DNA of 6,140 nt. Source: Vulcanimicrobiota bacterium (GTDB lineage Bacteria; Vulcanimicrobiota; Vulcanimicrobiia; Vulcanimicrobiales; Vulcanimicrobiaceae). The stretch lies in assembly GCA_003133025.1 (NCBI GenBank), contig PKZK01000037.1, forward strand, positions 1 to 6,140. The letters are read 5' to 3'. Of the stretch, positions 1 through 3,000 are shown piece by piece (the stretch's first letter is position 1; each line of letters opens with the position of its first letter). Made by a program: the position numbers.

Positions 1-3000
1 CGTCGAGGATACGCTCGCGGCCTACCTCGCGCTCGCGCGGCTCGCGCGCGCCCGGGTGCGCGGTCCGGTCGTGGCCATCAGCGGTTCGACCGGCAAGACG
101 ACGACGAAGCAGTTTCTCGTGCGCGCGCTCGAAGCGGCCGGCATCCCCGCGATCGCGACGCCGGAGAACGAGAACAACGAGATCGGCGTCGCGAAACTGC
201 TGCTCGGGGTCCCGGGCGACGCGCGCTTCGTCGTCGTCGAACTCGGCGCGCGGCACGCGGGCGAGATCGCGCCGCTCGCGCTCGCCGCGCGTCCCGAAAC
301 CGCACCGCTCACGAACGTCGGCGAAGCGCACCTCGAAGTGTTCGGCTCGCGCGCGCAGCTCGCGGCGACGAAGTGGGGCATCTTCGCCTCGGGCGCGCGC
401 CGCGTCCTCAACGTTGCGGACGAAACCTCGCGTGCGTTCGCGGAGCGCGACGGCCTGCCCGCGACGTGGTTCGGCGTGTCGGCCGACGCCGAAGCGCCGC
501 GCGGCGAAACCGCGCTCGTGCTCGACGGTCGCGACGAACTGCGCCTCCGCGTTCCGGGTCATCCGGAACGCACGTTCCGTACCGGCACCGGCATCCGGTT
601 CGGCGGCGACCACAACCTCGCGAACGCGGCGGCCGCGGCCGCCGCCGCATTCGATCTCGGACTCGAACCGGCCACGATCGCCGCGGCCCTCGGAACGCTC
701 GCGCTGCCCGCGGGTCGCTACGAACGTTCGAGCGTGGCCGGCTTCGACGTGATCTACGATGCGTACAACGCGTCGATGTCGGGCGCGCTCGCCACGCTCG
801 CCACGTTCGCGCGCGAGCGGGCCGAGCGGCGAATCGTCGTGCTCGGCAGCATGGCCGAGCTCGGTCCCGAGGCGCCCCAGATGCACCGCCGCGTGGGCGC
901 GGCGGTGGCTGCGCTCGACGTGGGCGCGCTGCTGGTCGGCGGCGATTTCGCCGAGGATTTGGCCGCCGGCGCGCGCGCCGCGGGCGTGCCGCCCGAGCGC
1001 ATCACCGAATTCGCCGACAACGCCGCCGCGCTCGAGTGGCTGCGCGCCAACGTGCGCGCCGGCGATCTGCTCTTGCTCAAAGCCTCGCGGCGCTATCGGC
1101 TCGAAGAGATCCTCAGCGGTCTCGAGGCGGCGCATGTCTGAGGCGGTGCTGGTCGTCGGCCGTCCCGCGCTCGCGTCGCGCGCGCCCTTCGCGGGCGAAG
1201 CGCGCGCGATCCCGGTGCGCACGCGCTTGATCGATCGCGGCGACGACGTCGCTGCGCTGGTCGCCGCCGCCGTCGCGGGCATCGCGAGCGGCGACGACGT
1301 GGTCTGCGTCTCCGAAACCGCAGTCGCGATCGCGCAGGGCCGCGCGATCGCCGCCGAAACGATCCGGCCGAGCCGGCTGGCCTACGTGCTCTCGCGGCGC
1401 GCGGGCGCCTTGGCCACGATCAATCAACCCGAATCGTTGCAACTGGTGATCGATCAAGTCGGTGCGTGGAAAGTGATCGTGGCCGCGGCCGCGCACGTCG
1501 CCGGCCGCTTGGCCGGGCGCCGCGGCGTCTTCTATTCGATGCTGGGCGAGGCGATCGCGACCATCGACGGTTACACCGGCACGTTGCCGCCGTTCGAACG
1601 CACGATCGTGCTCGGTCCGGCCGATCCCGACGGCGTCGCGCGCGACATCGCGGCGCGCTGCGGCGCGCAAGCGACGATCGTCGACGCCAACGATCTGGGC
1701 ATCGCCAAGGTGCTCGGAGCGTCGGCGCGCGTCGAGCGCGACGCGGTCGCGCGCGCGTTGCGCAGCAACCCGCACGGCAACGGCGACGAGCAGACGCCGA
1801 TCGTCGTGCTCAAGTGGCGCGGCGCCGCGCCCAGCCCGTTTGCGGCGGTGGCCGCATGAACGCGCTCGTGCAATTGGCCTTACTGTTCATCGCAACGTTC
1901 GCGCTGACGCTGCTCGCCGGCGGTCCGCTGATCGCCTTGCTCAAACGTGCCTCGCTGCGGCAGCACGCCTACGAAGACGCGCCCAAGACGCACGCCAAGA
2001 AGACCGGCACGCCGACGATGGGCGGCCTGCTCTTTCTGCTGGGCCTCGTGCTCGCGGTGCTTTGGCATCCCGACGCGCAGACTGCGGGGTTGGTGTTGCT
2101 CGGCGTGCTCTGCGGCGCCATCGGTTTCGTCGACGATCTGCGTTCGATCCGGCAAGGGCGCAATCGCGGCTTGGGCGCGCGCGACAAGTTTGCGCTGACC
2201 GCCGTCGCGGGCGCGATCTATCTGGCGCTGGCTACGTGGGCCGTGCCCGACGAAGCGCGGGGTGCGCTGCTCTCGTTCGGCGCATCGCACTGGTACGTGC
2301 CGATGTGGGCATGGGACGGCTTGGGTCTGGCCGCCATCGTGGCCACCACGCATGCGGTCAATCTCACCGACGGTCTCGACGGACTCGCGGCCGGCACGAT
2401 CCTCTCACCGCTGGCGGTCTTCGCCTGGCTCGGCTGGCGTGCGGGCACCACCGGCGTCACCTCCGTCGACGTCGCGCTCGGCGCGGCGACCCTCGGCTTT
2501 CTCGTCTTCAACCGTCACCCGGCCCGTGTGTTCATGGGCGATACGGGCGCGCTCGCGCTCGGCGGCATCCTCGCGGGCAGCGCGCTCGCAACCGGTAATG
2601 TCCTCTTACTCCCTCTCGTCGGCGGCGTTTTCGCTGCCGAGACCATCTCGGTGATCTTGCAAGTGGCCTCCTACAAGACGATTCACAGACGCATCTTCCG
2701 CATGAGCCCGCTGCACCATCATTTCGAATTAGGCGGCTGGCCCGAAACCAAAGTCACTCGTCGCTTCTGGACCGCGTCGGCGTTGCTCTCGCTCGCCGGC
2801 GCGGCGCTCGCGCGATGAACGGCAACATCGGCGGCTTCGACGCGCGCGAGCGGGTGCTCGTCATCGGCCTCGGCCGCAGCGGCTTGGCCAGTTGCGCGGT
2901 TTTGCGCGCGCGCGGCGCGAGCGTCTATGCGACCGACGAAAAGGATCCGGCGGCGCTGGCCGACGCGCGGGCCGCAATCGAACGCGCCGGCGTGCGCTTC

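What a model noticed while it worked through the whole genome (the two positions that open the first line are those of the whole stretch)
1134..1859. A CofE-fold amide ligase gene wedged between murF and mraY in the cell-wall (dcw) operon
g02864 (241 aa) overlaps the end of murF by 8 nt and the start of mraY by 4 nt, so it is an integral, translationally coupled member of the dcw operon (murF-X-mraY-murD-ftsW-murG on C212; mraZ-rsmH-ftsI-murE end contig C171). It has no Swiss-Prot or NCBIfam match and only a partial Pfam hit, but its model has the fold of CofE, the GTP-dependent ligase that adds gamma-linked glutamates to coenzyme F420. The genome shows no F420 pathway. I therefore propose that X forms an amide bond on a carboxylate of the peptidoglycan precursor made by MurF and used by MraY, a new stem-peptide modification.
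Evidence so far: Gene order and overlaps come from genes.tsv. PF01996 F420_ligase scores 46.8 bits over profile 2-133/218 only, with no Swiss-Prot or NCBIfam row. There is one copy in 36 of 36 other phylum genomes that are at least 95% complete (33-71% identity). murF-X-mraY-murD is also seen in 3 of 3 relatives of the class examined. In two genomes of another family X lies near ddl (D-Ala-D-Ala ligase). In three others it lies beside folD, a metH-like gene or unrelated genes. neighbours.tsv: F420_ligase is next to MraY in 270 of 352 order genomes and in 312 genomes in all, out of 42,704 that have both families. AlphaFold2 model from 15 orthologues: mean pLDDT 77, pTM 0.72. Foldseek against the PDB: the only [...]
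(Added by a program. Inside this text positions count along the whole contig: contig position 1 is position 1 of the stretch shown here. "Call 12" and the like, gene names such as g00115 and contig names such as C1 are that model's own, and its searches are not shown. The text may have been shortened before it was handed on; [...] marks where a part breaks off. The agent that wrote the report below was given it as the finding of a first reader that could run no searches.)

Follow-up and report, generated by a model that had tools for sequence, protein, structure and literature searches.

The report
CofE-fold gene between murF and mraY
A conserved gene shaped like the coenzyme-F420 glutamate ligase sits, overlapping both neighbours, between two core cell-wall genes in a soil bacterial phylum; its relatives elsewhere are fused or coupled to other cell-wall genes, so it probably carries out an undescribed step on cell-wall precursors.

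Summary
ORF 1134-1859 (241 aa) overlaps the murF stop by 8 nt and the mraY start by 4 nt. murF-X-mraY recurs in 29 of 29 other loci of the class.

X has the CofE fold and no other (VIA Z 15.1, next 4.4). It is not CofE:
- It scores 34 bits against NCBIfam cut-offs of 180-304.
- No strong CofD match in 82 class genomes.
- In 4 of 5 phylum genomes with cofD, a full-length cofE beside cofD coexists with the X paralogue.

It is unlikely to be a FolC2-type folate ligase: canonical FolC is in 82 of 82 class genomes.

New support for a cell-wall role:
- MurF-X is one ORF in 4 of 4 genomes of one genus.
- Other family members are fused to Amidase_3, AsnB-type amidotransferase and a peptidoglycan deacetylase.
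- Outside the phylum, murJ lies directly downstream in 14 of 80 loci and vanY in 12.

Substrate and chemistry remain inferred, and catalytic-residue conservation is inconclusive.

The scan had already reported this family on other DNA (e1-4268590, e1-2972423). I found no paper on it.

The parts
1..1141 (+). murF (UDP-MurNAc-tripeptide:D-Ala-D-Ala ligase), 5' end cut by the contig start; its stop TGA is at 1139-1141
   Evidence: Pfam Mur_ligase_M 97 bits and Mur_ligase_C 64 bits. The frame is open from base 2.
1134..1859 (+). X: 241-aa CofE-fold protein (P0001), member of an uncharacterised branch of PF01996
   Evidence: Translation. PF01996 51 bits over profile 2-133/218. AlphaFold2 pLDDT 90.7. 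2phn_A at Z 15.1, rmsd 3.1 A, 185 residues aligned. Present in 148 of 151 phylum genomes.
1134..1141 (+). 8-nt overlap ATGTCTGA: X start codon and murF stop codon
   Evidence: Sequence. An overlapping start is available in 29 of 29 unfused related loci. Confirmed in contigs of other runs.
1856..1859 (+). 4-nt overlap ATGA: mraY start codon and X stop codon
   Evidence: Sequence. A -4 overlap in 23 of 30 related loci.
1856..2818 (+). mraY (phospho-MurNAc-pentapeptide translocase)
   Evidence: Pfam Glycos_transf_4 109 bits and MraY_sig1.
2815..4215 (+). murD
   Evidence: Pfam Mur_ligase_M, Mur_ligase_C and MurD-like_N.
4208..5323 (+). ftsW
   Evidence: Pfam FTSW_RODA_SPOVE 350 bits.
5320..6140 (+). 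murG, 3' end cut by the window
   Evidence: Pfam Glyco_transf_28 and Glyco_tran_28_C.

Best explanation
X is a cytoplasmic enzyme of an uncharacterised, widespread branch of the CofE (PF01996) fold family. It works in peptidoglycan precursor metabolism, at or near the step between MurF (UDP-MurNAc-pentapeptide) and MraY or MurJ (lipid-linked precursor). It is translated together with murF and mraY.

By analogy with CofE, the most likely chemistry has two steps. First, a nucleotide triphosphate activates a carboxylate as an acyl phosphate. Then an amine (an amino acid or ammonia) attacks to form an amide on the stem peptide or the lactyl-peptide part of the precursor.

Shown: gene, fold, operon position, fusions, and distinctness from CofE and FolC. 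Inferred: enzyme activity, ligase chemistry, nucleotide use, and the identity of the substrate and the added group.
For: Fold. Only CofE matches the model: Foldseek E 3e-9 with the next hit at E > 1; VIA Z 15.1 with the next at 4.4; hhalign probability 97.7% to true CofE.

Enzyme-like conservation across 28-63% identity. T30, G110, G131, F133, G138, N212, P213, G215 and P222 are invariant. D55, Q68, R70, D145, D184, N186 and T221 are conserved at 90% or more.

Operon. The gene overlaps murF by 8 nt and mraY by 4 nt. murF-X-mraY holds in 29 of 29 other loci, and the overlaps are conserved.

Fusions.
- MurF-X is one ORF with a 63-69-aa linker in 4 of 4 genomes of one genus, and about 25 such proteins of 700-771 aa were found.
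- Amidase_3-X in 6 clusters, AsnB-X in 5, TPR-X-TM-peptidoglycan deacetylase in 1.

Other phyla. Among 80 loci from WOR-3, Patescibacteria and Clostridia, murJ lies directly downstream on the same strand in 14, vanY in 12, ykuD directly upstream in 2, and a PBP5-type carboxypeptidase within 1.5 kb in 1 (Pfam names). ddl is adjacent in 2 of 19 loci of other classes of the phylum.

Cytoplasmic location. There is no signal peptide, and X is fused behind cytoplasmic MurF. The ~400-aa form in the other classes has an N-terminal helix followed by basic residues in 18 of 18 sequences.

Not F420. No CofD match above 28 bits in 82 class genomes. True cofE sits beside cofD and coexists with the X paralogue in 4 of 5 genomes. 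The tree splits X from CofE with 100% support.
Against: No biochemical data exist, and I found no paper.

The catalytic machinery is not clearly conserved. These CofE-invariant positions have no counterpart in X:
- K44, K48 and E50 of THKxxSKAEGR
- GRPWR
- either the E208 helix or the beta-hairpin

The alignments disagree by 3-5 residues on which X aspartates match the CofE aspartates.

Context is not cell-wall related in 15 of 19 loci of the other classes, in 51 of 80 loci outside the phylum, or in the 6 AsnB-X loci examined.

Related genomes are not independent, so the counts overstate the support. For example, the 12 vanY loci are close relatives (41-100% identical VanY).

Operon membership can also reflect co-regulation with growth rather than a shared substrate.
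Confidence: 0.5

Rival explanations
1. X is tied to peptidoglycan synthesis but is not an amide ligase. It could be a scaffold or regulator coupling MurF to MraY, a precursor-binding or proofreading protein, a hydrolase, or a phosphotransferase that keeps only the first half-reaction of CofE.
For: The same context and fusion evidence applies. Several CofE-invariant residues, probably catalytic or nucleotide-binding, are replaced in X. The Pfam match covers only profile positions 2-133 of 218.
Against: Strict conservation of polar and glycine positions across 28-63% identity and a full-length fold match (185 aligned residues) suit an enzyme. The fusion partners are enzymes of amide chemistry (MurF, Amidase_3, AsnB).
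Confidence: 0.2
2. X is a FolC2-type glutamyl ligase for folate or another pterin or cofactor. The model is Chlamydia CT611, a CofE homologue that complements an E. coli folC mutant.
For: The precedent is in PMC1971073 (passages read). folD is adjacent in 1 of 19 loci of other classes and a MetH/MTHFR-like gene in 1. Canonical FolC over cut-off was not found in families f6 (19 genomes), f13 (6), f19 (5) or f20 (16), and most of these carry the X paralogue.
Against: Canonical FolC over cut-off is in G000 and in 81 of 81 other class genomes, so a second folate ligase would be redundant here. X and its paralogue are in 148 of 151 genomes whether or not FolC is present. The dcw position, the MurF fusion and the murJ and vanY coupling are not explained. 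I could not compare X with CT611 itself because no tool gave me that sequence.
Confidence: 0.1
3. X has a housekeeping function unrelated to the cell wall, and its place in the dcw operon reflects only co-expression with growth and division genes.
For: Context varies widely outside the class. No function has been tested.
Against: Independent links to different cell-wall genes occur in different phyla (murF and mraY, murJ, vanY, ykuD), and there are four kinds of fusion to cell-wall enzymes. These are hard to explain by chance.
Confidence: 0.15
4. X is a genuine but divergent coenzyme F420-0:L-glutamate ligase (CofE), as public annotations name some of its relatives.
For: It passes the PF01996 cut-off. 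NCBI and JGI name some relatives 'coenzyme F420-0:L-glutamate ligase'.
Against: 34 bits against equivalog cut-offs of 180-304. No CofD in the class. True cofE beside cofD coexists with the X paralogue. X is about 25 residues shorter between the aligned D184/D155 and P222/P218 positions, the region that includes the F420-contacting hairpin.
Confidence: 0.02

Closest known systems
CofE / FbiB N-terminal domain, coenzyme F420-0:L-glutamate ligase (PF01996, TIGR01916; A. fulgidus structures 2PHN, 2G9I, 7ULD)
   Same: Same fold and no other (Z 15.1, rmsd 3.1 A, 185 residues). hhalign probability is 97.7%. Shared motifs are GDD, (Q/E)GR, R-x-G, xxDxx at the end of the central strand, and (D/N)P-x-G. 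Like X, it is a cytoplasmic single-domain protein of about 240 aa.
   Different: X scores far below the equivalog cut-offs. The CofE-invariant K44, K48, GRPWR and about 25 residues of the C-terminal half are not matched. X occurs without CofD and alongside true CofE. The two are separated on the tree by branches of 1.21 on each side with 100% support. The gene context is cell wall, not F420.
FolC2 (Chlamydia trachomatis CT611, COG1478): a CofE homologue with FolC function
   Same: It shows that CofE-fold ligases have been recruited to substrates other than F420, in organisms that make no F420 (PMC1971073, passages).
   Different: FolC2 replaces a missing folC and clusters with folate genes. 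X coexists with canonical FolC in 82 of 82 class genomes and clusters with murF and mraY. No direct sequence comparison was made.
Cytoplasmic stem-peptide modifying enzymes: MurT/GatD (D-iGlu amidation), AsnB1/LtsA (mDAP amidation), Aslfm (D-Asp addition to UDP-MurNAc-pentapeptide). All recalled from my own knowledge, not from a call.
   Same: They act on nucleotide- or lipid-linked precursors between MurF and flipping, by carboxylate activation and amide formation. This is the role proposed for X. The AsnB-X fusions join X to the enzyme type that amidates mDAP.
   Different: The folds differ: Mur-ligase plus GATase, asparagine synthetase, and ATP-grasp. None is known to be encoded between murF and mraY, and none has the CofE fold.

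Membership tests
CofE (coenzyme F420-0:L-glutamate ligase, NCBIfam equivalogs TIGR01916, NF009809, NF009810) | Score over the curated equivalog cut-off | tested here: not met
   33.7, 33.9 and 20.2 bits against cut-offs of 180.65, 274 and 304. True CofE of the same phylum scores 219-230 bits on PF01996 over positions 4-218.
CofE (coenzyme F420-0:L-glutamate ligase, NCBIfam equivalogs TIGR01916, NF009809, NF009810) | Presence of the rest of the F420 pathway (CofD/FbiA) in the genome | tested here: not met
   TIGR01819 gave no match in G000 (80% complete). In the 81 other genomes of families f1-f3 there were only 4 weak matches (25-27 bits; cut-off 257).
CofE (coenzyme F420-0:L-glutamate ligase, NCBIfam equivalogs TIGR01916, NF009809, NF009810) | CofE fold (intertwined alpha/beta 'butterfly' monomer) | tested here: met
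   2phn_A Z 15.1, rmsd 3.1 A, 185 aligned residues, next Z 4.4. Foldseek E 3e-9.
CofE (coenzyme F420-0:L-glutamate ligase, NCBIfam equivalogs TIGR01916, NF009809, NF009810) | F420-contacting elements: domain-swapped beta-hairpin, G153-C155, F92, R234 of A. fulgidus CofE (PMC10861534, section 8 read) | tested here: inconclusive
   X is about 25 residues shorter between the aligned D184/D155 and P222/P218 positions. The alignments differ on whether the hairpin or the following helix is missing. No coordinates were available to me.
CofE (coenzyme F420-0:L-glutamate ligase, NCBIfam equivalogs TIGR01916, NF009809, NF009810) | Metal- and GTP-binding residues. I recall them as D109, D150, T151 and E208 of A. 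fulgidus CofE; the source paper PMC2678844 was not held. | tested here: inconclusive
   HMMER aligns D184 with the D of 'IITDT', but hhalign shifts this by 3 residues. D145 is not aligned with the 'GVDLSN' aspartate. The lysines of 'THKxxSKAEGR' are not conserved in X.
CofE (coenzyme F420-0:L-glutamate ligase, NCBIfam equivalogs TIGR01916, NF009809, NF009810) | Homodimer with the active site in the interface | not testable with these tools
   The one complex job gave no verdict; see Tried and rejected.
PF01996 (Pfam F420_ligase domain family) | Score over Pfam's gathering cut-off | tested here: met
   51 bits against a cut-off of 25, but only profile positions 2-133 of 218.
FolC2 (CofE-homologous folylpolyglutamate/dihydrofolate synthase) | Stands in for a missing canonical folC | tested here: not met
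   TIGR01499 scores over cut-off in G000 (318 bits, C17:2815-4026) and in 81 of 81 other class genomes.
FolC2 (CofE-homologous folylpolyglutamate/dihydrofolate synthase) | Clusters with folate genes | tested here: not met
   In this class the neighbours are murF and mraY in 30 of 30 loci. folD or a MetH-like gene is adjacent in only 2 of 19 loci of other classes.
FolC2 (CofE-homologous folylpolyglutamate/dihydrofolate synthase) | Sequence closeness to CT611 | not tested
   No tool gave me the CT611 sequence.

The most novel reading that the evidence does not exclude
The X family is a previously unrecognised cytoplasmic enzyme of peptidoglycan precursor synthesis. It is found in Eremiobacterota, Patescibacteria and Clostridia, and as fused forms in other Bacillota and in Actinomycetota, but not in the model organisms searched. 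It would be a CofE-fold, NTP-dependent ligase that adds or restores a residue or an amide on the stem peptide of UDP-MurNAc-peptide or lipid I/II before flipping. One possibility is a residue on the D-Glu or mDAP carboxylate. Another is re-addition of D-Ala to a tetrapeptide, which would fit its partners MurF, Ddl, VanY and the D,D-carboxypeptidases.
Probability: 0.3. Interest if true: 0.9.

Novelty: new variant of a known kind. Interest (0 to 1): 0.72.

Why it matters
The cytoplasmic steps of peptidoglycan synthesis (MurA-F, MraY, MurG, MurJ) are regarded as complete and are major antibiotic targets. An extra, nearly universal gene wedged between murF and mraY would point to a missing reaction on wall precursors. 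The gene is fused to MurF in one genus, and its relatives are coupled to murJ in Patescibacteria and to vanY in Clostridia.

Such a reaction could have gone unseen because PF01996 matches none of the 10 bacterial control genomes; it rings only in 3 archaea.

It would also give the CofE fold a third substrate class, after F420 and folate. In addition, it would correct a common misannotation, 'coenzyme F420-0:L-glutamate ligase', in organisms where no F420 pathway was found.

The question is directly testable, because one member of the phylum, Vulcanimicrobium alpinus, is in culture (PMC9758169, passages read). In those passages its wall is described only by electron microscopy; a text search found 'diaminopimelic' nowhere in the main text.

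Tried and rejected
1. Homodimer test. Complex prediction with two copies of X plus GTP and Mg gave 'no answer' (score 0.00). It says nothing either way.

2. X replaces Ddl: rejected. Ddl is in 80 of 81 class genomes, including G000.

3. X-MraY fusions as support: rejected. Two of the three such proteins (P0147, P0152) contain out-of-frame junk, and P0123 is a single case. By my recollection the MraY N-terminus is periplasmic, which would not suit a cytoplasmic fusion.

4. Expression. The only RNA run (X20) gave one 140-nt contig on murF (876-1015) and a 36-nt piece on mraY, and nothing on X. This is no evidence on transcription of X.

5. N-terminal domain of the ~400-aa paralogue. It is a TM helix plus an Ig-like beta-sandwich (pLDDT 83) with only generic Foldseek matches, E about 2e-4 and TM 0.3-0.38. 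It gives no clue to function beyond membrane tethering.

6. AsnB-X neighbourhoods in 6 Thermoleophilia and Acidimicrobiia loci showed no cell-wall genes. The alr adjacency noted in e1-1473638 was not seen there. My ORF calling in this high-GC DNA was crude: 21 of 35 ORFs had no Pfam family.

7. tblastn of the window's MurF, MraY, MurD, FtsW and MurG, and of a Ddl, against 80 loci outside the phylum gave 0 hits. The dcw position is therefore specific to Eremiobacterota among those loci.

8. The search for related loci with alignment A1 failed for lack of a conserved stretch. I used single proteins instead.

9. The CofE structure paper (PMID 17669425, PMC2678844) is not held. The metal-ligand residue numbers are therefore recalled.

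10. Literature. Six searches found no paper linking a CofE-like protein to peptidoglycan:
- CofE + peptidoglycan + murF, 0 papers
- CofE-like / PF01996
- gamma-glutamyl ligase + F420 + lipid II / stem peptide

11. The Atlas search only added the taxa Chloroflexota and Cloacimonadota.
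Full report
**1. What is in the window**

The window is G000:C212:1-6140, about 70% G+C. 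It carries, on the + strand, the following genes:
- murF (5' end cut, stop at 1139-1141)
- a 241-aa ORF X (1134-1859)
- mraY (1856-2818)
- murD (2815-4215)
- ftsW (4208-5323)
- murG (from 5320)

X starts in ATGTCTGA, an 8-nt overlap with murF. It ends in ATGA, a 4-nt overlap with mraY.

Contigs of other public peat, permafrost and moss metagenomes cover both junctions without a difference, so the overlaps are not an assembly slip. Names given by public sources to close relatives place the genome in Eremiobacterota (Vulcanimicrobiaceae and Baltobacteraceae).

**2. Is X a real, conserved gene?**

Yes.
- A relative is found in 148 of 151 genomes of the phylum, and in 119 of 120 of high quality. 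Of the three without a match, two are 67% and 75% complete and one is 96% complete.
- In the window's class the identity is 54-75%.
- The order murF-X-mraY holds in 29 of 29 other loci examined.
- A start codon overlapping the murF stop is available in all 29 unfused loci (-4 nt in 20). My rule picked the first start within -30 to +90 nt, which favours overlaps.
- The X stop overlaps the mraY start by 4 nt in 23 of 30 loci.

**3. Fold and family**

Pfam PF01996 matches at 51 bits but only over profile positions 2-133 of 218. The NCBIfam CofE equivalogs score 20-34 bits against cut-offs of 180-304.

An AlphaFold2 model built from 34 standalone family members has pLDDT 90.7 and pTM 0.88. Fold searches gave these results:
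- Foldseek against the PDB finds only A. fulgidus CofE (E 3e-9, TM about 0.6). The next hit is at E > 1.
- VIA-align against 48,161 chains gives 2phn_A at Z 15.1, rmsd 3.1 A and 185 aligned residues. The next is Z 4.4.

So X has the CofE fold and no other.

**4. It is not the F420 ligase**

- CofD (TIGR01819) has no match in G000. In the 81 other genomes of families f1-f3 there are only 4 matches, at 25-27 bits against a cut-off of 257. Strong CofD matches occur in other classes of the phylum.
- In five such CofD-positive genomes, a full-length cofE (219-230 bits, profile 4-218) lies beside cofD. In four of the five it coexists with a separate X-like gene (29-51 bits, partial profile).
- On a tree of 77 domains, the 72 X-family rows and the 5 true CofE rows are split with 100% SH-aLRT support and branches of 1.21 on each side. 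The dcw-encoded X forms its own clade (100%).

**5. Comparison with true CofE**

hhalign gives 97.7% probability over X 24-193 and CofE 13-165. The shared conserved positions are D55, R70, A83, G131, G138, P162, P213, G215 and P222.

These CofE-invariant positions are not matched:
- K44, K48 and E50 of THKxxSKAEGR (X has SETAVAIAQGR)
- the GRPWR motif
- about 25 residues between the central strand and the last strand

The alignments disagree on whether the missing piece is the F420-contacting beta-hairpin or the following helix. The hairpin's role is taken from PMC10861534, section 8.

Whether X keeps the metal and GTP site is therefore open. HMMER pairs D184 with the aspartate of 'IITDT', while hhalign shifts this by three residues. 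The residue numbers I hold for the CofE metal ligands are recalled, because the structure paper is not held.

Within the X family, conservation is enzyme-like. T30, G110, G131, F133, G138, N212, P213, G215 and P222 are invariant. D55, Q68, R70, D145, D184, N186 and T221 are conserved at 90% or more across 28-63% identity.

**6. The folate rival**

A CofE homologue of Chlamydia (CT611, 'FolC2') complements an E. coli folC mutant (PMC1971073, passages). A lead from an earlier scan note pointed me to this paper.

Canonical FolC (TIGR01499) scores over cut-off in G000 (318 bits) and in 81 of 81 other genomes of the class. X is therefore not needed as FolC here. In the phylum as a whole FolC is over cut-off in 102 of 151 genomes, while X or its paralogue is in 148 of 151, so there is no complementary pattern.

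FolC over cut-off was not found in families f6, f13, f19 and f20. folD or a MetH-like gene is adjacent in 2 of 19 loci of other classes. A folate role for the paralogue in those lineages is therefore not excluded. I could not compare X with CT611.

**7. Evidence for a cell-wall role beyond gene order**

(a) Fusions with MurF.
- A search for longer proteins found about 25 MurF-X proteins of 700-771 aa. They have a low-complexity linker between the MurF C-terminus and X.
- At the DNA level, MurF and X are one ORF with a 63-69-aa linker in 4 of 4 genomes of one genus of family f3. They are separate genes in 4 genomes of other f3 genera.

(b) Other fusions, among 30 multi-domain family members picked:
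- Amidase_3 (N-acetylmuramoyl-L-alanine amidase)-X in 6; the three sequences that I read (P0163, P0165, P0176) have no hydrophobic signal peptide
- AsnB-type GATase plus Asn_synthase-X in 5
- TPR-X in 8
- TPR-X-TM-Polysacc_deac_1 in 1, which places X inside and the deacetylase outside the membrane
- X-Peptidase_M20, X-adenylate kinase and X-GNAT, 1 each

(c) Other phyla. With one standalone member as query, 313 relatives were found in genome contigs. The best 80 loci come from WOR-3/Caldipriscus, Patescibacteria and Clostridia. None carries dcw genes or ddl within 6 kb. However:
- murJ (lipid II flippase) lies directly downstream on the same strand, 0-103 nt away, in 14 of 80 loci
- vanY (D-Ala-D-Ala carboxypeptidase) lies 122-441 nt downstream in 12
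- a YkuD L,D-transpeptidase lies directly upstream in 2
- a PBP5-type carboxypeptidase lies within 1.5 kb in 1

Related genomes are not independent, so these are counts of loci, not of events.

(d) Other classes of the phylum. The paralogue is a ~400-430-aa protein with three parts. First comes an N-terminal helix followed by basic residues in 18 of 18 sequences, which by the positive-inside rule puts the rest in the cytoplasm. Next is an Ig-like beta-sandwich. The X domain follows. Its neighbours vary. ddl is adjacent in 2 of 19 loci, and 15 of 19 have neither a cell-wall nor a folate gene beside it.

**8. What X does not do**

It does not replace Ddl, which is in 80 of 81 class genomes. It does not replace FolC or CofE.

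**9. Reading**

The common thread of the partners is the peptide-bearing precursor on the cytoplasmic side of the membrane:
- MurF, MraY, MurJ, Ddl and VanY
- L,D- and D,D-peptidases
- MurNAc-L-Ala amidase
- an mDAP-amidase-type AsnB
- a peptidoglycan deacetylase

CofE ligates an amino acid to a lactyl or glutamyl carboxylate through an acyl phosphate (PMC10861534 and PMC8498797, passages). From my own knowledge, the same kind of chemistry is used by the Mur ligases.

My best explanation (0.5) is therefore a cytoplasmic CofE-fold enzyme acting on a peptidoglycan precursor, most likely as an NTP-dependent carboxylate-amine ligase. Which carboxylate and which amine cannot be read from sequence. 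The rivals and their evidence are listed in their own sections.

**10. Novelty**

Six literature searches found no paper that links a CofE-like protein to peptidoglycan. The description of the only cultured member of the phylum mentions peptidoglycan only as a thin layer seen in sections (PMC9758169, passages). PF01996 matches none of the 10 bacterial control genomes.

The same family was reported earlier in this scan on other DNA (e1-4268590, e1-2972423) with the same general reading. Notes e1-736513 and e1-1473638 described the amidase and AsnB fusions. I re-derived the fusions here. I did not see the alr adjacency of e1-1473638 in the 6 loci that I examined.

**11. Claims that touch unpublished genomes**

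G128 and G159 and G166 are counted only inside the tallies of those calls. One search also made one locus (L147) from G128, which I did not read or use. No conclusion depends on these genomes.

Noticed in passing
L032-L051 (for example L048:6066-7262:-, L046:6058-7338:-): In the other classes of the phylum the X-like domain is the C-terminal part of a ~400-430-aa protein. It has an N-terminal transmembrane helix, a conserved 'GDC' just after it, and an Ig-like beta-sandwich with no Pfam family. Invariant residues in L048 numbering are D27, Y100, Y146 and R148.
   Followed up: partly
L054-L058 (for example G110:C225, G072:C74): Several other classes of the phylum (families f6 and f18-f21) carry a true F420 pathway, with cofE next to cofD. 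The window's class showed no CofD match above 28 bits.
   Followed up: partly
phylum genomes of families f6, f13, f19, f20: Canonical FolC (TIGR01499) over cut-off was not found in 46 of 46 genomes of these four families, many of them more than 95% complete. How they glutamylate folate is open, and the X paralogue is one candidate.
   Followed up: no
L072, L104, L107, L121, L134 and 9 further loci: In Patescibacteria the standalone X-family gene overlaps or abuts murJ on the same strand. Upstream lie a DHH-family gene and an RNase H-like gene, and lepA lies downstream of murJ.
   Followed up: partly
L073-L086 (Clostridium sp. and Clostridia MAGs): A conserved trio DUF2085 - X - VanY on one strand is seen in 10 loci; vanY follows X in 12.
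   Followed up: partly
L040:296-3945 and L048:5626-9510: Family f12 has the run NAGPA (phosphodiester glycosidase) - ddl - X paralogue - DUF188 (YaiI/YqxD).
   Followed up: no
window 1113-1775, - strand: A 220-aa ORF lies antisense to X. It is typical of 70% G+C DNA, and I saw no evidence that it is a gene.
   Followed up: no
one search hit list (P0044, P0080): JGI names two close relatives of X 'ribosomal protein S28E/S33', and NCBI names others 'coenzyme F420-0:L-glutamate ligase'. Both look like misannotations.
   Followed up: no
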